Source of the DNA: a virus
Taxonomy: Duplodnaviria; Heunggongvirae; Uroviricota; Caudoviricetes
Length of the DNA: 35,620 nt
Strand: one strand, 5' to 3'
Virus record (IMG/VR): IMGVR_UViG_3300029643_000041
The notes under the pieces are model-generated. The model saw only the letters and a list, made by a program, of their open reading frames with translations, had not been told where the DNA came from and searched no databases. Positions within the stretch are counted from its first letter, which is position 1, and every line of letters begins with the position of its first letter. The position numbers were made by a program, and so were the translations under genes. Shown one piece after another: positions 1 to 34,964 of the stretch.

Positions 1-55
1 GGCATCAGTCTTAATTAGTGCCACTGCTTTTCTTTGATGTCCCCATTTTGTGGAG

Positions 56-99
56 CCCATCAACCCCGCCATTTCGGTTCAAGGTTGATGGGTTTTTTG
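56..99 (+). terminator. Host-side hairpin plus T-run overlapping attL
   Basis: cccatcaacc / ggttgatggg 10-bp stem with about 17-nt loop, followed by tttttt; the 3' arm and the T-run lie in the att core. Confidence 0.45.
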
Positions 100-113
100 T
101 TGCCTGAAATTTA
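88..113. repeat. attL core, 26-bp direct repeat atgggttttttgttgcctgaaattta
   Basis: Exact copy of the sequence at 34939-34964; lies just outside ogr, where P2/186 phages carry att. Confidence 0.75.
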
Positions 114-7467: not shown

Positions 7468-8034
7468 TCAGGGAGATTCATTGCTCTTATTTGCCGGAAA
7501 TTTTCGATAAATGGTAGAAACGCCTACATCAAAAATCAGTGCAATACGCTGTCTTGATTCTCCGGCCTCGAGTAAACGCCCAATCTGTGCCCACTGTTCG
7601 CTGGTCAACTTAGGACGGCGTCCACCTACTCTGCCTTTAACACGAGCTGCAGCCAGCCCTGCCCTGGTACGTTCAACTATCAGTTCGCGTTCCATTTCAG
7701 CCAGGGCACCCATGACATGAAAAAAGAAACGGCCCATTGGGGTACTGGTATCAATACTGTCAGTCAGGCTTCGGAAATTCACGCCACGCTGGCGCAACTC
7801 TTCTATCAGCGTAACAAGATGCCGCATACTGCGCCCCAACCTGTCCAGCTTCCAGACAACCAGCGTGTCTCCTGCCGATAGTGTTCTGAGCAGTTTTTTC
7901 AGTCCCGGTCGGTCGGACTTCGTGCCGCTGATTTTATCCTCAAAAATCCGCTCGCATCCTGCGCACTCCAGCGCGTTACGCTGCAATTCCGTGTTCTGGT
8001 CATTTGTTGACACGCGTACATAGCCAATAAGCAT
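7468..8034 (-). CDS. Serine recombinase, DNA invertase of the Gin/Hin/Pin/Cin family
   Basis: 188 aa; MLIGYVRVSTNDQ...DTLVVWKLDRLGRS...MGRFFFHVMGALAEMERELIVERT...GGRRPKL...GVSTIYRKF closely resembles Hin/Gin, including the catalytic Ser region and C-terminal HTH. Confidence 0.9.
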   Translation of the reverse strand: MLIGYVRVSTNDQNTELQRNALECAGCERIFEDKISGTKSDRPGLKKLLRTLSAGDTLVVWKLDRLGRSMRHLVTLIEELRQRGVNFRSLTDSIDTSTPMGRFFFHVMGALAEMERELIVERTRAGLAAARVKGRVGGRRPKLTSEQWAQIGRLLEAGESRQRIALIFDVGVSTIYRKFPANKSNESP

Positions 8035-8091
8035 GAGTATCCCCCTGAATAAAAACCGGAGATGATGCCTGTTGCCCGTTATCTCTGCATT

Positions 8092-8115
8092 TTCATAAAC
8101 GTTGGTTTAGGAGAA
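8092..8115. repeat. Inversion crossover site 1 (gix/hix-like)
   Basis: ttcataaacgttggtttaggagaa; its reverse complement shares a 14-bp half-site (ttctcctaaaccaa) with the site at 9881-9906; lies next to the invertase gene. Confidence 0.65.
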
Positions 8116-8460
8116 GCGGCGAAAAGGGATGTGGGCACAGGAGATAATCAGATACCGGATATGTCTTTCTGGTCTTCCGCATCGGGTGGCGTTAATTTCC
8201 CTAATGGATTCCAGATGCGATTCGGTGCTATCGCTGGTAATGGTGGAAAATTATTTTCTACGCCATTTACAAATCAGTGCTATGGCATTGTTTTCGGACA
8301 AACATATGGAGCCAACTACTGGATGTTCAGCCCGATGTACAGAGCATCTGATCTGAGTAATACCAGTTTTGCATTCATTAACAAAGCCTGGTCTGGAATT
8401 CCGGGGACAGGTGCTCAGGACGCTGGTGAATCAGTTTTTTATATTGCAGTAGGGTATTAA
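8104..8460 (+). CDS. Alternative, currently unexpressed tail-fibre C-terminal segment
   Basis: Open frame from the crossover site encoding GLGEAAKRDVG...NGFQMRFGAIAG...; would join the constant part of H (…LSYLGLGE) in frame after inversion. Confidence 0.6.
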   Translation, partial: GLGEAAKRDVGTGDNQIPDMSFWSSASGGVNFPNGFQMRFGAIAGNGGKLFSTPFTNQCYGIVFGQTYGANYWMFSPMYRASDLSNTSFAFINKAWSGIPGTGAQDAGESVFYIAVGY

Positions 8461-8461
8461 T

Positions 8462-8905
8462 ATGGAAATGGTTTATAGCGCCTCAAATAATAGTTTTTTC
8501 GCTAAAAATGATGTGGCGAAATATGAACAGGCCGGATGGGAACTTGCTGATATTGTCGAAGTGACATATGACACTTACCTGGAATTTATTGAAGACAGAA
8601 CGTTGCAAGGGAAAGTACGCATCGCGGGTGATGATGGCCTTCCCACCTGGGGGGAAATTCCACCGCCAACTCATGAGGAACAAATTGCCGCAGCCGAACT
8701 GGAAAAGCAGCAATTGATTAATCAGGTCAACGAATACATAAACAGTAAGCAATGGCCTGGTAAAGCAGCGATTGGTCGCCTAAAAGGTGAGGAACTGGCG
8801 CAATATAATTTGTGGCTGGATTATCTGGACGCACTGGAACTGGTTGATACCTCCAGTGCTCCAGATATTGAATGGCCTACGCCTCCGGCAGTTCAGGCCA
8901 GATGA
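8462..8905 (+). CDS. Alternative tail fibre assembly protein
   Basis: 147 aa; C-terminus (…ELVDTSSAPDIEWPTPP) parallels the C-terminus of G (…TATDTSTAPDVIWPELP); converges on G with a 29-bp 3' overlap. Confidence 0.75.
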   Translation: MEMVYSASNNSFFAKNDVAKYEQAGWELADIVEVTYDTYLEFIEDRTLQGKVRIAGDDGLPTWGEIPPPTHEEQIAAAELEKQQLINQVNEYINSKQWPGKAAIGRLKGEELAQYNLWLDYLDALELVDTSSAPDIEWPTPPAVQAR

Positions 8906-9479
8906 CGTCCGGCGCTGTGCTGGTATCTGTTGCCGTCACCGCATCAATGTAATCCAGCACAGCGTTAAGTCGGGTGTTTTCTGTCTGCGTCAGCTTCCGC
9001 CCGGCCTGCAATTTCAGTTGAATCAGACTAATGGAAGCCATTGCAGTATCAATCAGTGACTGACGCTGTGCTTCTGCCGCGTCTAGTGCGGCGCTATGCT
9101 GTGCCTCAGTATCTGTCACCCATTTCTCACCATCCCATTCATCGTATGGCGTTAACGGGGCGATAGTGGTTGTATTTTCAGGGTAATCACCTGGTGCTGT
9201 GATTTCTTTTGATTCTCCTGTTTCGGTGCTAAAAACGATTTCACCGCGATGGTCTGGCACATATTCCCATGAGTTAAAATCTGCAGAACGGCAGATTGCA
9301 TAACCAGCTTTACGTGTAACTGGTGAATCTAAACAGGAATATGCAGGGATACCGACACCAATGGCAAGATATTCATTTGAAGTAGAAATATATTCCCGAG
9401 TTTTACCATCATAGTTATAGACGGTAATATTCCCCGCCTTCGTGGCAATAAGCTCGCTATTTAATACGGCGTTATCCAT
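8877..9479 (-). CDS. G: Tail fibre assembly protein G
   Basis: 200 aa directly downstream of H; carries the conserved Tfa C-terminal motif. Confidence 0.85.
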   Translation of the reverse strand: MDNAVLNSELIATKAGNITVYNYDGKTREYISTSNEYLAIGVGIPAYSCLDSPVTRKAGYAICRSADFNSWEYVPDHRGEIVFSTETGESKEITAPGDYPENTTTIAPLTPYDEWDGEKWVTDTEAQHSAALDAAEAQRQSLIDTAMASISLIQLKLQAGRKLTQTENTRLNAVLDYIDAVTATDTSTAPDVIWPELPEA

Positions 9480-11544: not shown

Positions 11545-12445
11545 CCGTTCCTCCGTTGGTTACGCTCCACTGCGTACATGATGCCGCCTGTGTTTTGTTC
11601 AGGACCACATCCGCCAGAGGAGAAGCCAGCTCCACACGCTGCACACCCTCAACATGCAGGGCGGCAAAGATGGCGCTACGGCGAATATCCCGACCAAGAC
11701 GCGTCTGACTGGCGATGTACTTCTGCAGGCTGGCTTTTGCCGCTGCCATTACCGGCTCTGCTTCCGGTCCCGGATAGAGAAAAATGGTGGCTTCCACGCG
11801 ATACGGGATGATTTCTGCGCTGCGAACCGTAAGACGGTCAGCCACCGGGCGGACGTTCTCACTGTTCAGAGCTTTTTCCACCACGTCCAGCAGGTCTTTT
11901 TCTGCAGTTCCATCGCCTTCGCGGCTAAGGACTGTCAGCACCACCTCTGCAGGTGCCGGGCTGGTTGCACTGGCATCCGCCACCCGACCGTCGGCGCTTC
12001 GGGCATGAAATTCATAAGCTGCAGTTGGCCCCGCAACTGAAAGCCCTTCAAAGGCTGCAGGCACACGCAGGCGTAACGCTTCATCGCTTTCCATCACAGC
12101 TGCAACGGGCGGCACAGCATCATTATCAGCAGGCGTCACCGTCAGGCGTGTCACGTTGTAGTTGGCAGCGAGCTGGTCAAGATCGCCGCCCATCGCGTAA
12201 GCCACCATCACCGCCTGCGCGGCTTCGTTAATGCGCTGGCGCAGAAGCAACTCACGGTAAGCGTTCTCCTGCAACAATTTAGTGACGGGTTCAGATTCCA
12301 GTTCCAGCGTGCGGATCACGGCTTCCTGCTCATCTTTCGGATGAAGCGCCACAAATTCTGCCTTGCGTTCGGCAAGCAGTGTCTCAAAGTCCGGCACATC
12401 CACAATCTGCGGTGCAGGCAACTGCGAAAGGTCAATCACTGCCAT
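11537..12445 (-). CDS. J: Baseplate protein J
   Basis: 302 aa from the internal Met (MAVIDLSQLP), matching P2 gpJ length; the track ORF starts 13 codons upstream at a GTG. Confidence 0.8.
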   Translation of the reverse strand: MAVIDLSQLPAPQIVDVPDFETLLAERKAEFVALHPKDEQEAVIRTLELESEPVTKLLQENAYRELLLRQRINEAAQAVMVAYAMGGDLDQLAANYNVTRLTVTPADNDAVPPVAAVMESDEALRLRVPAAFEGLSVAGPTAAYEFHARSADGRVADASATSPAPAEVVLTVLSREGDGTAEKDLLDVVEKALNSENVRPVADRLTVRSAEIIPYRVEATIFLYPGPEAEPVMAAAKASLQKYIASQTRLGRDIRRSAIFAALHVEGVQRVELASPLADVVLNKTQAASCTQWSVTNGGTDE

Positions 12446-12791
12446 TCTCTGCTCCTGTTGATACGGAAAGGGACACAGGCACACCGTTATTCCGCCGCCC
12501 GGTCAGCTCCACCACCATAGAACCGTCAAAGTTGCTGTTGATGGTGATGGAATCCAGCGTCAGCCGTGGCTCCCAGCGACTCAGCGCCACATACACTGCC
12601 GACATGACCTGCAGGCGTAATGCCGGATTTTGTGGCTGATCTATCAAAACCGACAGGAGGGAACCATATTCCCGGCGGGCAATGCGGCTACCCTGCGGTG
12701 TCAGCAGAATGTCCCGCACCGACTGGCGCAGATGATCAATATCAGTAATGACTTTGCCGCTGGTATTGTTCATCCCGCTATAAAGCGTCAT
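12432..12791 (-). CDS. W: Baseplate wedge protein W
   Basis: 119 aa (P2 gpW is 115 aa), position between V and J. Confidence 0.8.
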   Translation of the reverse strand: MTLYSGMNNTSGKVITDIDHLRQSVRDILLTPQGSRIARREYGSLLSVLIDQPQNPALRLQVMSAVYVALSRWEPRLTLDSITINSNFDGSMVVELTGRRNNGVPVSLSVSTGAENGSD

Positions 12792-13366
12792 ACCGGGCCT
12801 CCGGTTGTATCGCCGCCTTTCAGGACGCCAGTATGCTGATGCGCATCAACCACAATCCCGTTAGAGCTCATCGCTCCGCCGCCCTGGGTAACGCCACCAT
12901 TGATCACCACTTCGCTGTTAATACGCGTGCGGTCAGCCTCCAGTACAAACTCACTGGTTTTCATGGTGATGTTGTCAGCGGCCTCAATGACCATTGATTT
13001 GATGCCCCTGACATACCAGCGTCCGGTGGCGGGTTCGTATTCAAACCAGCCACCGTCAGGATGTTCTGTCACGCAGGCGTCCGCCGACGTCGACGGTGGC
13101 GCGAACTGATTCGAATAGATGGCGGGTAACGCAAAGGCGGTTTCCAGATTGCCGCCCAGACTCAGCAGCACCACCTGCTCACCTTCCGATGGTCGCCACC
13201 ATGTGCGGGCATTCCCGGCACGCAGCGTCAGCCAGCTGATCCAGTTGGTTTCAAGCTCGCCCGTTTTCACCCGGCAAAGCCAGTTTTCCCTGTCCACTTC
13301 GGTGACTACCCCAGTGCGGATCAGGTTGGTGATAAGGCGCATGATTTCGGTTAATTGTGCGTTCAT
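12788..13366 (-). CDS. V: Baseplate spike protein V
   Basis: 192 aa; first gene after a late promoter dyad; recognised as gpV family. Confidence 0.8.
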   Translation of the reverse strand: MNAQLTEIMRLITNLIRTGVVTEVDRENWLCRVKTGELETNWISWLTLRAGNARTWWRPSEGEQVVLLSLGGNLETAFALPAIYSNQFAPPSTSADACVTEHPDGGWFEYEPATGRWYVRGIKSMVIEAADNITMKTSEFVLEADRTRINSEVVINGGVTQGGGAMSSNGIVVDAHQHTGVLKGGDTTGGPV

Positions 13367-19384: not shown

Positions 19385-21151
19385 ATGAACACCACACTGA
19401 CACCCGCAGATCTCGATCCCCGTCGGCAGGCCATGCTGCTGTACTTTCAGGGATACCGCGTAGCCCGCATTGCTGAAATGCTGGGCGAGAAAGTTGCAAC
19501 CGTTCACAGCTGGAAAAAACGCGACAAGTGGGGTGACTATGGGCCGCTGGATCAGATGCAGCTCACCACCGCCGCACGCTACTGCCAGCTCATCATGAAG
19601 GAGCACAAAGAAGGGAAAGACTTTAAAGAAATTGACCTGCTGGCGCGCCAGTCGGAGCGCCACGCGCGGATCGGCAAGTTTAACAATGGCGGCAACGAAG
19701 CCGACTTAAACCCTAACGTCGCCAACCGCAACAAAGGCCCGCGCCGTCAGCCGGAAAAGAATGTTTTCACCGATGAACAGATTGAGAAGCTGGAAGAAAT
19801 CTTCCATTCCTCCATGTTCAACTACCAGCGCCACTGGTGGGAAGCCGGAAAAACCAACCGCATCCGCAACCTGCTGAAGTCACGCCAGATCGGCGCGACC
19901 TTCTATTTTGCCCGTGAAGCCCTGATTGACGCCCTGCTAACCGGACGTAACCAGATTTTCCTTTCCGCCAGTAAGGCACAGGCCCACGTCTTTAAACAGT
20001 ACATCATCGACTTCGCCAAAGAAGTGGAGGTGGAGCTGAAAGGCGATCCGATGGTGCTTCCCAACGGGGCCACTCTTTACTTCCTCGGCACCAATGCCCG
20101 CACGGCCCAGAGTTACCACGGCAACCTGTATCTGGATGAATATTTCTGGATACCGAAATTCCAGGAGCTGCGCAAAGTGGCTTCCGGTATGGCTATTCAC
20201 AAAAAATGGCGACAAACCTATTTTTCCACGCCATCCAGCCTGACCCACAGTGCTTATCCGTTCTGGTCCGGTGCGCTGTTCAACCGTGGACGCAACAAAG
20301 CCGACAAGGTGGACATCGACCTGTCCCATAGCAATCTGGCCCCCGGCCTGCTGTGCGCAGACGGGCAATACCGCCAGATAGTCACCGTGGAAGATGCGGT
20401 GCGCGGCGGCTGTAACCTGTTCGACCTTGACCAGTTGCGCATGGAGTACAGCCCGGACGAATACCAGAACCTGCTGATGTGCGAGTTCGTGGACGATCTC
20501 GCGTCCGTGTTCCCGCTCAGCGAGCTGCAGGCGTGCATGGTGGACAGCTGGGAAGTCTGGACCGACTTTCATGCACTGGCCCTGCGCCCGTTTGGCTGGC
20601 GCGAGGTGTGGATCGGTTATGACCCGGCAAAAGGTACGCAAAACGGCGACAGCGCCGGATGCGTGGTGGTGGCACCGCCAGCCGTGCCGGGCGGTAAGTT
20701 CCGCATTCTTGAGCGTCACCAGTGGCGCGGGATGGACTTCCGCGCCCAGGCTGACGCCATCAAAAAACTGACCGAACAGTACAACGTGACCTATATCGGC
20801 ATCGACTCGACGGGTGTCGGTCACGGGGTTTATGAAAACGTGAAAGCGTTTTTTCCAGCCGTCCGGGAGTTTGTCTACAACCCCAACGTTAAAAACGCCC
20901 TGGTACTCAAGGCCTACGACATTATCAGTCACCGTCGTCTGGAGTTTGACGCCGGACACACCGACATAGCGCAGTCATTTATGGCAATCCGTCGCGCAAC
21001 CACCGCCAGCGGCAACCGCCCGACCTATGAAGCAAGCCGCAGTGAAGAAGCCAGCCATGCCGATCTGGCCTGGGCAACAATGCACGCACTGTTTAACGAA
21101 CCGCTGCAGGGCGAGTCCGCCAATACCAGCAATATTGTGGAGATTTTTTGA
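19385..21151 (+). CDS. P: Terminase large (ATPase) subunit P
   Basis: 588 aa (P2 gpP is 590 aa); divergent from O. Confidence 0.9.
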   Translation: MNTTLTPADLDPRRQAMLLYFQGYRVARIAEMLGEKVATVHSWKKRDKWGDYGPLDQMQLTTAARYCQLIMKEHKEGKDFKEIDLLARQSERHARIGKFNNGGNEADLNPNVANRNKGPRRQPEKNVFTDEQIEKLEEIFHSSMFNYQRHWWEAGKTNRIRNLLKSRQIGATFYFAREALIDALLTGRNQIFLSASKAQAHVFKQYIIDFAKEVEVELKGDPMVLPNGATLYFLGTNARTAQSYHGNLYLDEYFWIPKFQELRKVASGMAIHKKWRQTYFSTPSSLTHSAYPFWSGALFNRGRNKADKVDIDLSHSNLAPGLLCADGQYRQIVTVEDAVRGGCNLFDLDQLRMEYSPDEYQNLLMCEFVDDLASVFPLSELQACMVDSWEVWTDFHALALRPFGWREVWIGYDPAKGTQNGDSAGCVVVAPPAVPGGKFRILERHQWRGMDFRAQADAIKKLTEQYNVTYIGIDSTGVGHGVYENVKAFFPAVREFVYNPNVKNALVLKAYDIISHRRLEFDAGHTDIAQSFMAIRRATTASGNRPTYEASRSEEASHADLAWATMHALFNEPLQGESANTSNIVEIF

Positions 21152-22179
21152 TGGGAAAGAGTAAAAAAAAACGCGCTGCGGCGACGAACCAGATCCAGCA
21201 TAAAAGCCAAGCTTCAGCCGAAGCATTCAGCTTCGGTGATCCCATTCCAGTACTTGACCGCCGCGAACTGCTGGACTATGTGGAATGCGTACAGACAGAT
21301 CGCTGGTATGAGCCTCCCGTCAGCTTTGACGGACTGGCGCGCACCTTCCGCGCTGCCGTGCATCACAGTTCACCAATTGCAGTGAAATGCAACATTCTGA
21401 CCAGCACCTACATCCCTCACCCGCTTCTCAGCCAGCAGGCTTTTTCGCGTTTTGTGCTGGACTATCTGGTATTTGGTAACGCCTACTTGGAGAAACGCAC
21501 GAACCGATTCGGTGAAGTTATCGCCCTTGAGCCTGCGCTGGCAAAATACACCCGACGCGGGTTAGACCTGGATACCTACTGGTTTGTACAATACGGTATG
21601 ACAACCCAGCCGTATCAGTTCGCGAAAGGCAGCATTTTTCATCTGATGGAACCGGACATCAACCAGGAGATCTACGGCCTGCCCGGTTATCTTTCTGCCA
21701 TTCCGTCAGCCCTGCTCAACGAGTCCGCCACGCTGTTCCGCCGCAAGTATTACATTAACGGCAGTCATGCAGGCTTCATCATGTATATGACTGACGCCGC
21801 GCAGAACCAGGAGGATGTGAACAACCTCCGCAACGCGATGAAAAGCGCCAAAGGACCGGGCAACTTCCGTAACTTGTTTATGTACTCGCCTAACGGCAAA
21901 AAGGACGGGCTTCAGATCATCCCGTTGTCAGAAGTTGCAGCGAAGGATGAATTTCTGAATATCAAGAACGTGAGCCGGGACGACATGATGGCGGCACACC
22001 GTGTGCCGCCGCAAATGATGGGGATTATGCCGAATAATGTTGGGGGGTTTGGGGATGTGGAGAAAGCTAGTAAGGTTTTTGTGACAAATGAATTAGTACC
22101 TCTACAAAAAAAAATCCATGAATTTAATCAGTGGATAGGGATGCATATTATCAATTTCTCAGAATATAATATAGATTAA
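21148..22179 (+). CDS. Q: Portal protein Q
   Basis: 343 aa (P2 gpQ is 344 aa); start overlaps the P stop. Confidence 0.9.
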   Translation: MMGKSKKKRAAATNQIQHKSQASAEAFSFGDPIPVLDRRELLDYVECVQTDRWYEPPVSFDGLARTFRAAVHHSSPIAVKCNILTSTYIPHPLLSQQAFSRFVLDYLVFGNAYLEKRTNRFGEVIALEPALAKYTRRGLDLDTYWFVQYGMTTQPYQFAKGSIFHLMEPDINQEIYGLPGYLSAIPSALLNESATLFRRKYYINGSHAGFIMYMTDAAQNQEDVNNLRNAMKSAKGPGNFRNLFMYSPNGKKDGLQIIPLSEVAAKDEFLNIKNVSRDDMMAAHRVPPQMMGIMPNNVGGFGDVEKASKVFVTNELVPLQKKIHEFNQWIGMHIINFSEYNID

Positions 22180-22202
22180 TTATATATACATCCCTCTAAC
22201 CT

Positions 22203-22886
22203 TTAAGGCATTCTATTCTCAAAAACATGCTTTATCGCAGTGGTAAAGCATCTATCTTTTACATTCTTTTTAAACTCATCAAAGACCATAGATCTAACAT
22301 CTTCAATTTCACATCCTGATTCAATAAGCTGAGATGCACATCCGACCAGTTCCTTTATTAATGTCATGCTTAATTCTATTGCACGTCTTCTTTCCGCCTT
22401 GACTCCTCCTGAGGACGGGTTTAAGTTAAATACTCTTAACGTAACCTCTGCCATTTTGTGTTCTTTCTCATTCAAGCCTTCTCTAATATGAACATCACCA
22501 TTTTCCAAAAAATGGAAAAAAACATCTGGATTTTGTCTATCAGCTTTAATTAAATCATCATCGTTATATTTTTGCTTATCCTTATAAAACCCACACCTTT
22601 GCGGCTCACCACATGAGCCAAACAAATTAGACCACTCGAAAGTTAAATTTTTGTAATAACTTTTCCTGTAAAAATGTTCAATATGCCTCTCAACTTTATT
22701 TTTGCCACCACTTTTATGATGCTCTATTTTTTTCTCGCAATAAGCACATAATTTACCTTGCATTTTTATTATTTCTTCCCATATTTCTTTTTTATCATTT
22801 GATGATAGGGAATTCCAATCATCCCTCCTATAGTCAAATTTATTAAGAACGGAAGGCCCTGGCATTTGCCTAGATAGATATTTCAT
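22203..22886 (-). CDS. HNH endonuclease, Septu PtuB-like retron effector component
   Basis: 227 aa; CAYCEKKIEHH...VERHIEHFYRK...CGEPQRC HNH/zinc motif; start overlaps the ATPase stop (ATGA); strongly AT-rich. Confidence 0.8.
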   Translation of the reverse strand: MKYLSRQMPGPSVLNKFDYRRDDWNSLSSNDKKEIWEEIIKMQGKLCAYCEKKIEHHKSGGKNKVERHIEHFYRKSYYKNLTFEWSNLFGSCGEPQRCGFYKDKQKYNDDDLIKADRQNPDVFFHFLENGDVHIREGLNEKEHKMAEVTLRVFNLNPSSGGVKAERRRAIELSMTLIKELVGCASQLIESGCEIEDVRSMVFDEFKKNVKDRCFTTAIKHVFENRMP

Positions 22887-24517
22887 TTTACATCCTTACT
22901 TCCAGAAAAGTGCTGATTTATCTTATTTTTGAACTCCAAAACAGATATAAGATCATCACACTCTTGAACTAAAGGATGGTCTAATCCGAAATGTTTAATA
23001 ACTTTTTCTCTTAACAAAAGAGCCTCGTCACTGCTATAACGATTAAGCTCAACCAATTTTTTATATTCTTCAAGCCAACCATTTTCTTTAGTAGAGGGTA
23101 TAGGATCAGTTCTCATTCCATATAAAAGTGCATCCTGATTACTAACACCTTTTATTTGATAGTCGGGGTGAGACACTATCAAATCATTAACACCATCTAC
23201 TTCCACTTCCTGTAGAATACGCACTGAACGAGAGCTAACAGTGGATAAAACCTGTGGGCTATGGGTAGTAATTACAAATTGAACATTTGGGAATGTAGAT
23301 GTCAAACGCTCAATAATTGTCTGTTGCCATTGCGGATGCAAATGCAAATCAATTTCATCAATTAAAACAATCCCATATCCCAATAGAGGATTAGATAAAT
23401 TTGGATTAAGTAAAATTAAACGTCGAGCCAAATCACCAACTAAAGTAAATATAGTTTTCTCACCTTGAGACAACTGTTGAATATCTAATTCAACCTCTCC
23501 TTTTTTAAGGATAATCTTATAATCATCATCACCATAAACAAGCTTAATCCACTGAAATTCAGGCAAGAACTTTAGAATGGTATTTATAACACTATCATAA
23601 AGTGATACTGCATTATTAAACTTATGTTCTCCTGATTGCAGAGATTTCATGTAGTTCAATTTTTCTTTAAGCGAAAGCTCTAAACCTTTTATAACTGTTG
23701 AATCAATATTATCAATCGCAGATAGTTGAGTTAATGTTGCTTTCAAACTCTGAATATCTGAAAATAACGCATTGATTGTCGTTTGTGACTCACTCAATTT
23801 CTCTTGTGAAGCTCTGTTATGAAGAAATACAAGCCATTGAAAAAAATCGGTAAAATCATTTCTGTCAAACTCGATTTCATCATACACATCGAATTTTGAC
23901 CATACAGTTTTAGTTTTAGCATTTTTTCTTTTCCTATCAACCCCACCGCCTATATAAGAACGCGCAATAGAATAATATGCCATCAAAGGCAAGCTTGCAT
24001 TATCAACATATTTATTCACAAGTCTATAAATACTTGCAAGTTTTTTTATCTCCAACAATTCATTATTTCTAGAATAATATGCCCCCTCTTTCGCTTTAGT
24101 AATCAAAATACTGGTATTAAAGTCCTTGAGTTTTATATTTGCATCAATTGATGCATACTCAACATCAACAGAGTTATTAACTTCATGGCTTTTAATATAA
24201 GTACCAGGCTTACTCTCCTTTTCAATATTTGATCTCAACCAACTCAAAACAATTGCTATTGCATCCAAAATAGTGCTTTTACCGAATCCGTTATCCCCGA
24301 CAAAAACAGTCAAATCATCTTCTAAAGAAATCTGTAGTTCTCTTATCCGTTTAAAATCATGTATACCTATTTTATTTAAATGAAACTTACTCTCATTTAA
24401 AGTAGATATTAGCTTTTGAAGCTCAACAGACTCCTTCAAATAATCCTCGTTTATCACATGTGATTCCAACTCTAAAAAATCAACATAGCAAGTCTCTAAA
24501 TTCATTTTATTTATCAT
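22883..24517 (-). CDS. P-loop ATPase, Septu PtuA-like retron effector component
   Basis: 544 aa; Walker A VFVGDNGFGKST, Walker B VLIDEIDLHLHP, then ITTHSP; translationally coupled to the RT upstream and the HNH downstream. Confidence 0.8.
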   Translation of the reverse strand: MINKMNLETCYVDFLELESHVINEDYLKESVELQKLISTLNESKFHLNKIGIHDFKRIRELQISLEDDLTVFVGDNGFGKSTILDAIAIVLSWLRSNIEKESKPGTYIKSHEVNNSVDVEYASIDANIKLKDFNTSILITKAKEGAYYSRNNELLEIKKLASIYRLVNKYVDNASLPLMAYYSIARSYIGGGVDRKRKNAKTKTVWSKFDVYDEIEFDRNDFTDFFQWLVFLHNRASQEKLSESQTTINALFSDIQSLKATLTQLSAIDNIDSTVIKGLELSLKEKLNYMKSLQSGEHKFNNAVSLYDSVINTILKFLPEFQWIKLVYGDDDYKIILKKGEVELDIQQLSQGEKTIFTLVGDLARRLILLNPNLSNPLLGYGIVLIDEIDLHLHPQWQQTIIERLTSTFPNVQFVITTHSPQVLSTVSSRSVRILQEVEVDGVNDLIVSHPDYQIKGVSNQDALLYGMRTDPIPSTKENGWLEEYKKLVELNRYSSDEALLLREKVIKHFGLDHPLVQECDDLISVLEFKNKINQHFSGSKDVK

Positions 24518-25452
24518 TATTTGTTTCCTTCCATCAGGAACTTAGTTATTAACTCACAACCATATTTTTTTTGTAACCTTAATAAAAAATCACCCTCCAA
24601 ATAATTTGCAAACGCAATCATCCCTTTGGTTTTATTTATTTCTTCGGAAGATAAGAGTCCCAAAGAATATTTATGAATCTTTGCAAACAGCATCCTTTTA
24701 CGATCGCGACCAATTGATAAATTGCCCTGAGGTGTAAGTGTTACACCAGTCACGTGCCGATTATGAGCCATCGATGTAAAAATTGTTTTAGATTCATTGA
24801 TTGATAGACCGGGAACATGGAGCGACAACATTTTTTTTACCACCTTAGGAACCCTGCACAATATATCCTTAATATTAGTTGAAAAAGTTATATCATCTGC
24901 ATACCTTGAATAAGTGATACCATTGTTACGGCACCAATCATCAAGACTCTTGTCAAAGTCATACATAACAAAATTACTAATAAATGGTGAGCTTGGCGCC
25001 CCTACACTTAATATCAACGTTGTACTTCTCTTTTTTCCCGGACGCCAAAAAAGCAAATTACGTAGGGTGTTCTCATCAAATGAATCCAATTTCAGCCCTG
25101 TGTTCTCAAGTTTCGAGAAAAATATATCAGGTTTAATTTTGTTAAAGAAGTTCTGAAAATCCATTTTAAGAATATAATTATTATCTTTATGCAACAATGC
25201 ATTATCTTTAATACTTTTTTTATATTCATATGCCATTGCCTTATGATGAACAGGCAGCTTTGGCTGTAGCAAAGATACTATAAATCTCTGTACGTTTTTT
25301 AGTTCCTTTGTCGGCTGAGCTATCACCCGAAAACCTGCGCCACGTTTAGGAATATAATAAACTTTATATTTTTTGGGGGCCTCATTTAAAAGTAATTGGA
25401 AAGCTAATCTATTATAATTAAACTTACTGATAATTTTAGAAGTTAGTTGCAT
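24517..25452 (-). CDS. Retron-type reverse transcriptase
   Basis: 311 aa; ILKMDFQNFF, SVGAPSSPFISNF, YSRYADDITF (YxDD box) and the retron-typical VTG triplet (HNRHVTGVTL); AGAGGGG Shine-Dalgarno before the ATG; preceded by a structured non-coding region. Confidence 0.85.
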   Translation of the reverse strand: MQLTSKIISKFNYNRLAFQLLLNEAPKKYKVYYIPKRGAGFRVIAQPTKELKNVQRFIVSLLQPKLPVHHKAMAYEYKKSIKDNALLHKDNNYILKMDFQNFFNKIKPDIFFSKLENTGLKLDSFDENTLRNLLFWRPGKKRSTTLILSVGAPSSPFISNFVMYDFDKSLDDWCRNNGITYSRYADDITFSTNIKDILCRVPKVVKKMLSLHVPGLSINESKTIFTSMAHNRHVTGVTLTPQGNLSIGRDRKRMLFAKIHKYSLGLLSSEEINKTKGMIAFANYLEGDFLLRLQKKYGCELITKFLMEGNK

Positions 25453-25700
25453 ATAACCCCTCTTAAAACCAAAGCGCCATGCAACTTTACATAGCGCTTT
25501 GACTCTTCACTAAAGACAGCGAAAGACACAGATTTCTCCTTCGCATATCTGCCCCGGGCAGGGATGCGAAGGAGAAATCTGTGTCTTTCGCAACCCTAAA
25601 CCGGACAATAAATTTAAGCCTGGCTAATCACCCGGCTGGAACCAATGTTCCTACACTAAAGAGCGTAATGATTTTAATGAACAAATAGATATAAGGCAAG
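25453..25700 (-). ncRNA. Candidate retron msr-msd non-coding RNA (limits approximate)
   Basis: Non-coding stretch directly 5' of the RT on the same strand; 28-bp perfect inverted repeat (arms 25519-25546 and 25564-25591, 17-nt loop) consistent with an msd stem; smaller hairpins at 25638-25651 and 25461-25490. Flanking a1/a2 repeats were not resolved by eye. Confidence 0.5.
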
Positions 25701-25704
25701 GCGC

Positions 25705-25735
25705 GCGCTCGTATCCCCGCCACGCCTGCCCGCTT
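25705..25735. other. cos-like GC-rich motif (candidate cohesive-end site)
   Basis: Minus-strand ggcgtggcggggatacgag matches 14 of 19 positions of the P2 cohesive end GGCGAGGCGGGGAAAGCAC as I recall it; lies between the Tum-module terminator and the retron. Confidence 0.3.
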
Positions 25736-25770
25736 TATGTAGTGGTTTTCATGCACCTGCATGATCTACG

Positions 25771-25797
25771 CAAAAGCCCGCCAGTTCTGGCGGGCCT
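25771..25797 (-). terminator. Rho-independent terminator closing the SOS/Tum-like operon
   Basis: Minus strand gcccgccag-aa-ctggcgggc followed by ttttg. Confidence 0.6.
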
Positions 25798-25930
25798 TAG
25801 CAAAAACGATCCTCAAACGATCATGCGATCTCATGCGGCATAGACATGCACTACAGAGCTAACGCCTCGCAAGGGCTCGTTGTTCAACCTTGCTGACGCC
25901 AGAAACAAGTTCAGACGCCAGCAACGTTTC

Positions 25931-26164
25931 TTAATGCAGCCAGCTGTCGTCTTCCCACACCTTCTGCATAATTTTCATCACTTGTTTTCTTTCTTCGTCC
26001 AGTTGCAGTCCGGTCAGTTCCACACCGTTAGAGCTACCTTTGCGGATACGAATTACCGTTTTGGGATACAGGGGGCGCAGATTGCGGTAAAGCTCGGATT
26101 CAAGGGCGTCCAGTGTAGACTGGCTAATCTTCTGCTCTTTATCGATCATTATTTCAATGCGCAT
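25931..26164 (-). CDS. DinI-family protein (Tum-like antirepressor C-terminal module)
   Basis: 77 aa from the internal Met with a GAGGTG Shine-Dalgarno; MRIEIMIDKEQKISQSTLDALESELYRNL...VWEDDSWL parallels E. coli DinI (MRIEVTIAK...). Confidence 0.8.
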   Translation of the reverse strand: MRIEIMIDKEQKISQSTLDALESELYRNLRPLYPKTVIRIRKGSSNGVELTGLQLDEERKQVMKIMQKVWEDDSWLH

Positions 26165-26174
26165 AAAAGTCACC

Positions 26175-26363
26175 TCAGCTGATGACATCCATTGAGCGGT
26201 TGTATTCGTGGGTTCTGATTTTTGCCATGAGTTCATCTGTCAGTTCAGAAACCCACTGCAGGGCCAGCCCCTTCTCTTCATCACTACACTCACTAGCCGC
26301 TACAAGCTTAAGAAAAAAATCAATGCGCTGGAGCTTCAAAGACTCCAAAAAATAGTCCTGCAT
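26175..26363 (-). CDS. Small acidic protein, first gene of the LexA-controlled operon (possible Tum N-terminal module)
   Basis: 62 aa ORF starting about 30-60 nt downstream of the LexA box; ends 10 nt before the DinI-like start. Confidence 0.45.
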   Translation of the reverse strand: MQDYFLESLKLQRIDFFLKLVAASECSDEEKGLALQWVSELTDELMAKIRTHEYNRSMDVIS

Positions 26364-26405
26364 CTTTCCTCCTATGACACCAAAGCAATACTGTATATAT
26401 AACCA

Positions 26406-26421
26406 CTGTTTATGTTTACAG
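26406..26421. promoter_or_regulatory. LexA operator (SOS box) CTGT-N8-ACAG
   Basis: ctgtttatgtttacag, overlapping a TATACT -10 element with a TTTACA -35 on the minus strand; an adjacent half-site tactgtatatata at 26389-26401. Confidence 0.65.
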
Positions 26422-34938: not shown

Positions 34939-34964
34939 ATGGGTTTTTTGTTGCCTGAAATTTA
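34939..34964. repeat. attR core, 26-bp direct repeat
   Basis: Exact copy of 88-113; lies downstream of int and is followed 5 bp later by the stop codon of a host TetR-family gene. Confidence 0.75.

What the first reader, a model, noticed from the sequence alone, without database searches (positions are those of the whole stretch)
22203..25770. Retron with Septu-like ATPase and HNH effectors in an AT-rich cargo block next to the portal gene
A 311-aa reverse transcriptase carries the YxDD catalytic box (YSRYADDITF) and the retron-typical VTG triplet. It is preceded on the same strand by a structured non-coding region and followed, with overlapping stop/start codons, by a Walker A/B ATPase and an HNH nuclease. 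This is the architecture of retrons that use Septu-type (PtuA/PtuB) effectors, such as Ec78/Ec83. The block is markedly AT-rich against a GC-richer phage backbone, so it looks horizontally acquired. It lies between the portal gene Q and a cos-like motif, where 186-related prophages are known to carry retrons and P2-family phages carry defence cargo. The family is known, but this particular RT-msd-effector variant and its placement in an SOS-inducible prophage deserve a direct look.
Basis: partly seen in the sequence, partly recalled or inferred. Interest (0 to 1): 0.85.

Follow-up and report, generated by a model that had tools for sequence, protein, structure and literature searches.

The report
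Known type I-A retron in P2-like prophage
This is an intact copy of an anti-phage retron (reverse transcriptase, small RNA, ATPase and nuclease) whose structure and mechanism were published in 2025, sitting in the known cargo hotspot of a P2/186-like prophage, so the reading is correct but not new.

Summary
On the minus strand lie a sigma-70-like promoter, a 163-nt msr-msd ncRNA (25664..25502), a 311-aa RT (YADD, VTG), a 544-aa PtuA ATPase and a 227-aa PtuB HNH nuclease. Together they form a 3.6-kb block of 31-36% GC, against about 55% in the prophage backbone.

The system is not new. RT and PtuB are 100% identical, and PtuA 542/544 identical, to the chains of PDB 9N69/9N6B/9N6C. That is the type I-A retron of E. 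coli FORC_082 (George et al., Nat Commun 2025). The DNA is 99.8% identical to that chromosome and the ncRNA core is identical.

That paper shows that the msDNA scaffolds an RT-PtuA4-PtuB complex, that phage flap nucleases (T3, T5) degrade the msDNA, and that the HNH then cleaves tRNA-Ser and arrests translation.

The site, between the portal gene and cos of a P2/186-like prophage, is a documented defence hotspot that carries retrons.

What this window adds is context only: an apparently intact prophage integrated at rybB, a LexA-boxed DinI operon, and sister retron cassettes at the same site in other strains. Novelty: already known. Interest: low.

The parts
25671..25699 (-). Putative retron promoter: TTGCCT, 17-nt spacer, TAAAAT. 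It lies inside the cargo, 9 nt from cos. The ncRNA 5' end is expected about 7 nt downstream of the -10 element.
   Evidence: Consensus scan, a pattern match only. Backbone homology to other P2-like phages stops at 25701.
25502..25664 (-). Retron ncRNA (msr-msd). a1 25664-25657 pairs with a2 25509-25502. The unpaired branching G is at 25656. msr is 25664-25600, with stem-loops at 25651-25638 and 25637-25617. msd is about 25599-25510 and contains a 73-nt hairpin at 25591-25519.
   Evidence: Fold -87 kcal/mol, z = -9.8. Rfam msr RF00170 at 25600-25664: 45.9 bits, E 3.5e-7, full length, below the gathering score of 52. Model R1 finds the same RNA upstream of the RT in 9 more distant loci (11 hits with the two E. 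coli sister loci). On the 10-sequence alignment, 41 of 59 pairs show compensatory changes; 95% of cells pair, against about 42% when the partner is slid. The published numbering A7/G8 fits a 5' end at about 25663. The msd end is inferred from the reported msDNA of about 90 nt.
25469..25500 (-). Hairpin directly 3' of a2 and before the RT ribosome-binding site (AAAGCGCTAT..ATGGCGCTTT, then GGTTTT). It may act as an attenuator or as a 3'-end stabiliser of the ncRNA.
   Evidence: A strong hairpin sits at the same place in 11 of 12 type I-A loci with unrelated sequences, z from -3 to -9. It is part of the Rfam STnc400 model, which matches 25461-25598 at 71.4 bits, E 5e-14, below the gathering score of 80. 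Function is inferred.
24517..25452 (-). Retron reverse transcriptase, 311 aa (YADD 184-187, VTG 234-236).
   Evidence: 311/311 identical to PDB 9N69 chain E. PADLOC RT_I-A 4.9e-131. Pfam RVT_1. NCBIfam retron_St85_RT 321 bits against a cut-off of 235.
22883..24517 (-). PtuA, an SMC/ABC-type ATPase, 544 aa (Walker A at 74-81, Walker B D387).
   Evidence: 542/544 identical to the FORC_082 PtuA (E156G, I157V); residues 2-544 align to PDB 9N69 chain A with the same two differences. PADLOC PtuA 1.3e-193 and ATPase_I-A 8.1e-152. Pfam AAA_15, AAA_21, SMC_N. D387A abolishes defence in the paper.
22203..22886 (-). PtuB, an HNH nuclease, 227 aa (H71 catalytic). This is the tRNA-cleaving effector.
   Evidence: 227/227 identical to PDB 9N69 chain F. 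PADLOC PtuB 1.5e-117. NCBIfam PtuB 160.7 bits against a cut-off of 150. H71A abolishes defence and toxicity.
22090..25700 (.). AT-rich exchangeable cargo cassette. The left edge lies inside the last 25-30 codons of the portal gene; the right edge lies 7 bp from cos.
   Evidence: GC profile. Identity to other P2-like prophages falls from about 0.9 to about 0.6 after roughly 22100 and resumes at 25701. Other cargo occupies the same site in L002, L003 and L004.
25708..25726 (-). cos cohesive-end site of the prophage, GGCGTGGCGGGGATACGAG.
   Evidence: Compared with the annotated cos of phage 186, bases 1-19. Invariant across four P2-like elements.
21148..22179 (+). Portal gene (P2 Q / 186 W), convergent with the retron operon. 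Context only.
   Evidence: Pfam Phage_portal. Annotated as phage portal protein in FORC_082 and strain 98208.
25931..26421 (-). Context: LexA box CTGTTTATGTTTACAG (26406-26421), a 62-aa ORF (26363..26175), and a DinI-like gene (26164..25931). An intrinsic-terminator-like hairpin follows at 25797-25770.
   Evidence: The only exact LexA-box match in the window. Pfam DinI. 41% identity to the C-terminal part of 186 Tum. The 186 p95/LexA/tum annotation is. Sequence read.

Best explanation
The locus is an intact copy of the type I-A retron ('Retron-Septu') first characterised from E. coli FORC_082. It is carried as cargo in the cos-proximal hotspot of a P2/186-like prophage.

How it works, by inference from identity with the published system:
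1. A promoter inside the cargo transcribes the msr-msd ncRNA followed by the RT, PtuA and PtuB genes.
2. The RT primes from the 2'-OH of the branching G (window 25656) and copies the msd into an msDNA hairpin of about 90 nt.
3. The msDNA acts as a scaffold for two PtuA ATPase dimers. These hold one PtuB HNH nuclease in an inactive state, giving an RT-ncRNA-msDNA-PtuA4-PtuB complex of 364 kDa.
4. When a phage that encodes a flap-type 5' nuclease infects (T3 exonuclease, T5 D15), the msDNA is degraded.
5. PtuB then becomes active and cleaves tRNA-Ser. Translation stops and the phage fails to replicate.

For the prophage, the retron would serve to exclude competing phages from its lysogen.
For: Shown here:
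- The three proteins are 100%, 99.6% and 100% identical to the chains of PDB 9N69/9N6B/9N6C.
- The DNA differs from the FORC_082 chromosome at 7 of 3801 bases, and the ncRNA core 25663-25502 is identical.
- The catalytic residues that the paper mutated are present: RT YADD, PtuA D387, PtuB H71.
- The ncRNA has a1/a2, an unpaired G after a1, two msr stem-loops and a long msd hairpin, with strong covariation and a full-length Rfam msr hit.
- Family assignment to type I-A comes from PADLOC and NCBIfam.

Shown in the literature for the identical system (PMC12475279):
- Defence against T3 and T5.
- Requirement for the ATPase and HNH active sites, and toxicity of RT-dead mutants.
- An msDNA of about 90 nt, and the architecture of the complex.
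- Triggering by T3/T5/T7 flap nucleases through msDNA degradation.
- tRNA-Ser cleavage.

Hotspot context.
Against: - Nothing was measured for this particular lysogen. The published assays used plasmid clones in MG1655, so native expression from the prophage is unknown, including possible silencing of the AT-rich block.
- PtuA differs at two adjacent residues (E156 and I157 here, G156 and V157 in FORC_082), within the stretch of residues (100-203) that the paper lists as contacting the msDNA. Single alanine mutants nearby (N151A, N152A) were neutral, and this exact allele occurs on 80 public contigs. A functional effect is therefore unlikely but untested.
- The paper itself leaves open how the HNH is released, and whether tRNA cleavage is the whole cause of arrest.
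- The promoter and the msDNA end points are inferred from sequence.
Confidence: 0.93

Rival explanations
1. It is retron Ec78 (Eco7) or Ec83 (Eco4) itself, and would therefore deplete tRNA-Tyr and be evaded by T5 tRNA-Tyr and ORF75.
For: Same type I-A architecture. PGAP names the PtuB 'retron Ec78 ... PtuB'. PDB Ec78 and Ec83 chains are clear homologues.
Against: The match to the Ec78 and Ec83 RTs is far weaker (288 and 269 bits) than to the FORC_082 RT (698 bits, 311/311 identical). PtuA scores below the NCBIfam Ec78-PtuA equivalog cut-off, 472 against 500. The FORC_082 system cleaves tRNA-Ser and is not evaded by T5 tRNAs or ORF75.
Confidence: 0.02
2. The genes are intact, but the cassette is silent or non-functional in its native prophage. 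Causes could be repression of the AT-rich DNA, a weak promoter, or the PtuA E156/I157 allele. It would then give the lysogen no defence.
For: GC of 31-36% is typical of xenogeneic DNA. The promoter is only a 9-of-12 consensus match, and such matches were no more frequent than in shuffled sequence. Function was shown only from plasmids.
Against: The paper cloned the operon with about 550 bases of its own upstream DNA and obtained defence. All ORFs and catalytic residues are intact. The exact proteins are kept on hundreds of contigs in E. coli and Salmonella.
Confidence: 0.05
3. The RT is not a retron RT (group II intron, DRT or Abi type), and the ATPase-HNH pair is an independent Septu system that merely lies next to it.
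For: Weak, sub-threshold similarity to group II intron RT and to Drt2, Drt3a and Drt4 models. PtuA and PtuB also hit stand-alone Septu models.
Against: The group II model scores 65.6 bits against a cut-off of 300, and the Drt models score even less. No intron RNA appears in Rfam. An msr-msd ncRNA with covariation lies directly upstream. The identical proteins are seen in one complex with the msDNA.
Confidence: 0.005

Closest known systems
Type I-A retron of E. coli FORC_082 (George et al., Nat Commun 2025; PDB 9N69, 9N6B, 9N6C)
   Same: RT 311/311 and PtuB 227/227 identical; PtuA 542/544. The ncRNA core is identical. DNA identity is 99.8% over 3.8 kb. The flanking portal and DinI genes are the same, as is the chromosomal site between ybjL and rcdA.
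   Different: There are 7 SNPs, two of them in PtuA (E156G, I157V). The host prophage here appears complete, with capsid, lysis and tail genes. In FORC_082 it has lost the capsid, lysis and several tail genes, and carries a TIR-domain gene.
Retron Ec78 (Eco7) and Ec83 (Eco4), the classical type I-A retrons
   Same: Same gene order (ncRNA, RT, PtuA, PtuB), the same ncRNA layout, and tRNA-directed HNH toxicity held in check by the msDNA complex.
   Different: The proteins are clearly diverged: RT 288 and 269 bits against 698 for the identical chain. Ec78 depletes tRNA-Tyr and is evaded by T5 tRNA-Tyr and ORF75. The FORC_082-type system cleaves tRNA-Ser and is not evaded.
Sister type I-A retron cassettes at the same prophage site (E. 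coli N10, locus L002; E. coli M37H, locus L003)
   Same: Same position between portal and cos, same orientation. The ncRNA plus the adjacent cos/backbone DNA is 82-91% identical by megablast.
   Different: Proteins are only 46-60% identical. The central msd stem differs through compensatory changes.
Stand-alone Septu (PtuA/PtuB, PDB 8EE4/8EE7)
   Same: Homologous ATPase and HNH proteins. The paper reports structural similarity of the ATPase C-terminal claw and the HNH.
   Different: Septu has no RT, ncRNA or msDNA, and the paper says its HNH was reported to be a DNase. Similarity to the solved Septu chains is weak: PtuB E 4.6e-5.
cos-proximal defence hotspot of P2-like phages (Rousset et al. 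2022); retrons Ec67 and Ec86 in 186-related prophages (Dodd & Egan 1996)
   Same: The cargo lies between gpA and gpQ next to cos, the locus reported to hold retrons and many other defence systems. The 1996 title places Ec67 and Ec86 between cos and a terminator of a 186-related prophage.
   Different: None in kind. Here the cargo is on the portal side of cos. In 186 that gap is only 176 bp.

Membership tests
Retron (general) | RT of the retron clade with a YxDD catalytic box and the retron-typical VTG motif | tested here: met
   YADD at 184-187 and VTG at 234-236. The 25 PADLOC matches listed are all retron RT models. NCBIfam retron_St85_RT scores 321 against a cut-off of 235.
Retron (general) | Upstream msr-msd ncRNA with terminal inverted repeats a1/a2, an unpaired branching G just after a1, and an msd hairpin | tested here: met
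   a1 25664-25657, a2 25509-25502, G 25656, 73-nt msd hairpin. 41 of 59 pairs are compensatory across 10 loci. Rfam msr hit is full length, E 3.5e-7, but below the gathering score.
Retron (general) | Production of RT-dependent msDNA | not testable with these tools
   Reported for the FORC_082 system, whose RT and ncRNA core are identical: an msDNA of about 90 nt in the purified complex.
Type I-A retron (RT + SMC-like ATPase + HNH) | RT of the I-A clade, followed on the same strand by a PtuA-type ATPase and a PtuB-type HNH | tested here: met
   RT_I-A 4.9e-131, ATPase_I-A 8.1e-152, HNH_I-A 3.7e-57. The genes overlap in one operon.
FORC_082 type I-A retron (PDB 9N69) | Near-identity of all three proteins and of the ncRNA | tested here: met
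   311/311, 542/544 and 227/227 residues. The ncRNA 25663-25502 has no difference from FORC_082.
Retron Ec78 (Eco7) proper | Equivalog-level match of the effectors to the Ec78 PtuA and PtuB models, and high identity to the Ec78 RT | tested here: not met
   PtuA 472.2 bits is below the cut-off of 500. PtuB 160.7 bits is just above its cut-off of 150. The RT match to Ec78 chains is 288 bits against 698 for the identical chain.
Stand-alone Septu | PtuA and PtuB acting without an RT or ncRNA | tested here: not met
   An RT and an ncRNA lie directly upstream in the same operon, and the identical proteins form a complex with the msDNA.
P2-like cos-proximal defence hotspot | Variable cargo between gpA and gpQ next to cos, in a P2-family prophage | tested here: met
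   cos at 25708-25726. Portal and GPA domains flank the block. Different cargo occupies the same site in L002, L003 and L004.
Group II intron RT | Intron RNA domains together with a maturase-type RT | tested here: not met
   group_II_RT_mat scores 65.6 bits against a cut-off of 300. Rfam finds no intron.
186-type SOS-inducible prophage | A 186-type CI repressor plus a LexA-repressed tum antirepressor operon | tested here: inconclusive
   CI has the Phage_CI_repr and Phage_CI_C domains. A perfect LexA box lies at 26406-26421. The DinI-like gene is 41% identical to the C-terminal part of 186 Tum. The 62-aa ORF shows no similarity to 186 Tum.

The most novel reading that the evidence does not exclude
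The retron belongs to an allelic series of swappable type I-A cassettes at the portal-cos junction of P2-like prophages.
- Each cassette brings its own AT-rich portal C-terminus.
- Each has a nearly invariant msr, a different msd stem, and a PtuB only 50-55% identical to the others.
- The alleles may therefore recognise different phage triggers or cleave different tRNAs.

Separately, the structurally conserved hairpin right after a2 (the 3' part of Rfam STnc400) may act as an attenuator that sets the ratio of ncRNA to RT/effector mRNA.
Probability: 0.3. Interest if true: 0.35.

Novelty: already known. Interest (0 to 1): 0.15.

Why it matters
It matters little as a discovery. The system, its structure, its trigger and its target were published in 2025, and the hotspot was described in 1996 and 2022.

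The window is useful as a clean natural example. The FORC_082-type retron sits here on an apparently complete P2/186-like prophage, whereas the FORC_082 prophage itself has lost capsid, lysis and tail genes. That makes the retron's role as a phage-borne exclusion weapon, and its native regulation, testable in a lysogen.

The comparison of three diverged cassettes at one site could also guide work on how PtuB tRNA specificity evolves.

Tried and rejected
- Rfam at gathering thresholds found only RybB in the window. The retron ncRNA appeared only with the permissive E-value search, as sub-threshold msr and STnc400 hits. Two microRNA-family hits on the msd palindrome (MIR7533, mir-2068) were dismissed as artefacts of the long hairpin.
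- No deposited phage genome holds this retron. The best RT match is 47.8% identical, and the Klebsiella P2-like phages carry a different RT at 36%.
- The paper's supplements are not held, so the published ncRNA boundaries could not be checked letter by letter.
- A preprint on H-NS silencing of immunity loci could not be read.
- BLASTP of the 62-aa ORF against 186 Tum found nothing. Pfam and NCBIfam also gave no family for it.
- The opposite-strand hits of model R1 on the msd palindrome were excluded from the covariation count.
- Read-through from the LexA-controlled operon into the retron was considered. It is judged unlikely because a terminator-like hairpin with a T-run (25797-25770) and cos lie between them. 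This was not tested.
- Two Python calls failed because of file naming.


Full report
**1. Observation**

The minus strand between 22203 and 25700 holds three overlapping ORFs:
- a 311-aa protein, 25452..24517;
- a 544-aa protein, 24517..22883;
- a 227-aa protein, 22886..22203.

The gene junctions are TAATG and ATGA. The first protein contains YSRYADDITF (YADD at 184-187) and VTG (234-236). The second has Walker A GDNGFGKS (74-81), LSQGE (349) and DEID (387). The third has CAYC (47) and HIEH (68-71).

GC content is 0.30-0.36 over 22001-25500, against 0.52-0.60 in the neighbouring structural genes. The portal gene ends at 22179.

A cos site, GGCGTGGCGGGGATACGAG, lies at 25726..25708. It matches the annotated cohesive end of phage 186 at 14 of 19 positions, including the first 13.

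**2. What the proteins are**

PADLOC places the three proteins in type I-A retrons:
- RT_I-A 4.9e-131;
- PtuA 1.3e-193 and ATPase_I-A 8.1e-152;
- PtuB 1.5e-117 and HNH_I-A 3.7e-57.

Pfam gives RVT_1 for the RT, and AAA_15, AAA_21 and SMC_N for the ATPase. NCBIfam gives retron_St85_RT (321 bits, cut-off 235), PtuB (160.7, cut-off 150) and PtuA just under its equivalog cut-off (472, cut-off 500). Group II intron and DRT models fall far below their cut-offs.

**3. Identity with a solved system**

A sequence search of the Protein Data Bank shows that:
- the RT is 311/311 identical to chain E of 9N69/9N6B/9N6C;
- the HNH protein is 227/227 identical to chain F;
- ATPase residues 2-544 align to residues 10-552 of chain A with two differences. 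The nine extra N-terminal residues of the chain fit the Strep tag described in the paper.

Ec78 and Ec83 chains are much weaker matches: RT 288 and 269 bits, against 698 for the identical chain.

The DNA of 22100-25900 is 99.8% identical, over its full length, to four of 5,426 complete E. coli genomes. The first of these is strain FORC_082. Against FORC_082 there are 7 differences in 3801 bases:
- two change PtuA (E156G, I157V);
- none falls within the ncRNA core 25663-25502.

The exact proteins are common in draft assemblies. The RT is on 718 contigs, PtuB on at least 1000, and this PtuA allele on 80. They also occur in Salmonella enterica.

**4. Literature**

PDB 9N69, 9N6B and 9N6C belong to George et al., Nat Commun 2025 (PMC12475279), 'a Type I-A retron from E. 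coli FORC82'. For this system the paper reports:
- defence against T3 and T5 but not T4 or T7, from the operon cloned with about 550 bases of its upstream DNA;
- loss of defence with ATPase D387A or HNH H71A, and toxicity of RT-dead mutants;
- a 364-kDa complex of RT, ncRNA, an msDNA of about 90 nt, four ATPases and one HNH;
- a priming guanosine at G8, next to A7, near the VTG motif and YADD;
- activation by the T3 exonuclease and by the T5 (D15) and T7 flap nucleases, through msDNA degradation;
- cleavage of tRNA-Ser, with no evasion by T5 tRNAs or ORF75, unlike Ec78, which depletes tRNA-Tyr.

The mechanism I give for this window is inferred from sequence identity with that system. It was not measured here.

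**5. The ncRNA**

Read on the minus strand, the region folds into the canonical retron shape:
- a1 (25664-25657) pairs with a2 (25509-25502);
- an unpaired G sits at 25656;
- two msr stem-loops lie at 25651-25638 and 25637-25617;
- a 73-nt msd hairpin spans 25591-25519;
- the fold energy is -87 kcal/mol, z = -9.8.

The published A7/G8 numbering fits a 5' end at about 25663. That position is about 7 nt downstream of a TTGCCT-17-TAAAAT promoter-like site at 25699-25671. This is a pattern match only, and the scan found no more such matches than in shuffled sequence.

With the reported msDNA length of about 90 nt, the msd would span roughly 25599-25510 (inference).

Two related E. coli loci align across the ncRNA, and 11 pairs already show compensatory changes. 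A covariance model built from the three sequences finds a full-length match upstream of the RT in 9 more distant gammaproteobacterial loci, so 11 loci in all besides the window. Counted on a 10-sequence alignment made with that model:
- 95.3% of cells pair, against about 42% when the partners are slid;
- 41 of 59 pairs have changes on both sides;
- 0 of 500 shuffles reach the observed values.

The alignment was fitted to the model, which favours the structure. The slid controls argue that the signal is real.

Rfam gives sub-threshold but full-length hits:
- msr (RF00170) at 25600-25664, 45.9 bits, E 3.5e-7;
- STnc400 (RF02058) at 25461-25598, 71.4 bits, E 5e-14.

The STnc400 hit covers the msd, a2 and a further hairpin.

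**6. Context**

The window holds an apparently complete P2/186-like prophage. It has tail, baseplate, lysis, capsid, terminase and portal genes, then replication, CII, CI and integrase genes.

A 26-bp direct repeat bounds the prophage at 88-113 and 34939-34964. The left copy overlaps the 3' end of rybB, which lies at 23-101.

Backbone homology to other P2-like elements is invariant through cos and stops at 25701. On the other side, identity falls from about 0.9 to about 0.6 inside the last 75-95 bp of the portal gene, where GC drops to 0.27. The exchangeable block is therefore about 22090-25700.

The same site holds other cargo in other elements:
- type I-A retrons only 46-60% identical in protein in E. 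coli N10 and M37H;
- an unrelated gene in phage vB_EcoM-813R9.

This is the gpA-gpQ, cos-proximal hotspot of Rousset et al. 2022, which lists retrons among its cargo. Dodd and Egan (1996) already placed Ec67 and Ec86 between cos and a terminator of a 186-related prophage. The FORC_082 paper does not discuss the prophage context in the text I searched.

**7. SOS inducibility**

The CI repressor is of the 186 type. The only exact LexA-box match in the window lies at 26406-26421, upstream of a 62-aa ORF and a DinI-like gene. This mirrors the LexA-controlled p95-tum operon of 186.

The DinI-like protein is 41% identical to the C-terminal part of 186 Tum. The 62-aa ORF shows no similarity to 186 Tum and matches no family. 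It is conserved in many P2-like phages, where it is annotated as hypothetical. SOS control of this operon is therefore likely. SOS induction of the prophage itself is not established.

**8. Verdict**

The locus is a near-identical copy of a retron that is already characterised structurally and mechanistically, sitting in an already described hotspot.

The remaining open points are minor:
- native regulation of the retron in the lysogen;
- the role of the hairpin after a2;
- whether the diverged cassettes at this site differ in tRNA or trigger specificity.

Novelty: already known. Interest: 0.15.

Noticed in passing
window 25469-25500 (-); also L002, L003, L008, L012-L016, L018, L019: A strong hairpin lies directly after a2 of the retron ncRNA and before the RT ribosome-binding site. 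It occurs in 11 of 12 type I-A loci with unrelated sequences (z from -3 to -9) and is often followed by a T-run. It is part of Rfam STnc400, which appears to be the msd half of a retron ncRNA. It may be an attenuator or a 3'-end stabiliser.
   Followed up: partly
window 22090-22179 (+): The last 25-30 codons of the portal gene are AT-rich (GC 0.27) and diverge from other P2-like prophages. The cargo cassette seems to bring its own portal C-terminus, so the left exchange point lies inside the portal ORF.
   Followed up: partly
window 23-113 and 34939-34964: RybB sRNA lies at 23-101 (105 bits). A 26-bp direct repeat, ATGGGTTTTTTGTTGCCTGAAATTTA, occurs at 88-113 and 34939-34964. These look like the prophage att sites, with integration into the 3' end of rybB.
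   Followed up: partly
window 25931-26421 (-): A perfect LexA box lies at 26406-26421, upstream of a 62-aa ORF of unknown family and a DinI-like gene. The DinI-like protein matches the C-terminal part of 186 Tum (41% identity), but the 62-aa ORF shows no similarity to 186 Tum. The 62-aa ORF is conserved in Klebsiella, Salmonella, Escherichia and Yersinia P2-like phages.
   Followed up: partly
window 7468-9479: A serine invertase (Resolvase + HTH_7, 188 aa, minus strand) lies next to oppositely oriented small ORFs and the tail-fibre genes, in a lower-GC stretch. This is probably an invertible host-range segment.
   Followed up: no
L001 (E. coli FORC_082) 8708-31629: In FORC_082, the source strain of the published retron, the host prophage lacks the capsid, lysis and several tail genes. 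It carries a TIR-domain protein and pseudogenes. Strain 98208 (L005) and this window keep a full gene set.
   Followed up: partly
window 24049-24051 (PtuA codons 156-157): PtuA has E156/I157 here, G156/V157 in FORC_082 and the PDB chain, and E156/V157 in strain 98208. The two residues lie within the stretch (100-203) that the paper lists as msDNA-binding, next to N151 and N152.
   Followed up: no
L002 6001-6396 and L003 6001-6364 versus window 25503-25900: [quoted passage not shown] Their proteins are only 46-60% identical, and the promoter stretch between cos and a1 is poorly conserved. The ncRNA is therefore far more conserved than the retron genes.
   Followed up: partly
Klebsiella phages such as NC_047818 (4LV2017), about 12022-12849: Klebsiella P2-like phages that share the 62-aa ORF carry a different retron-type RT (36% identity) about 2.4 kb away. 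This is apparently the same hotspot with another retron type.
   Followed up: no
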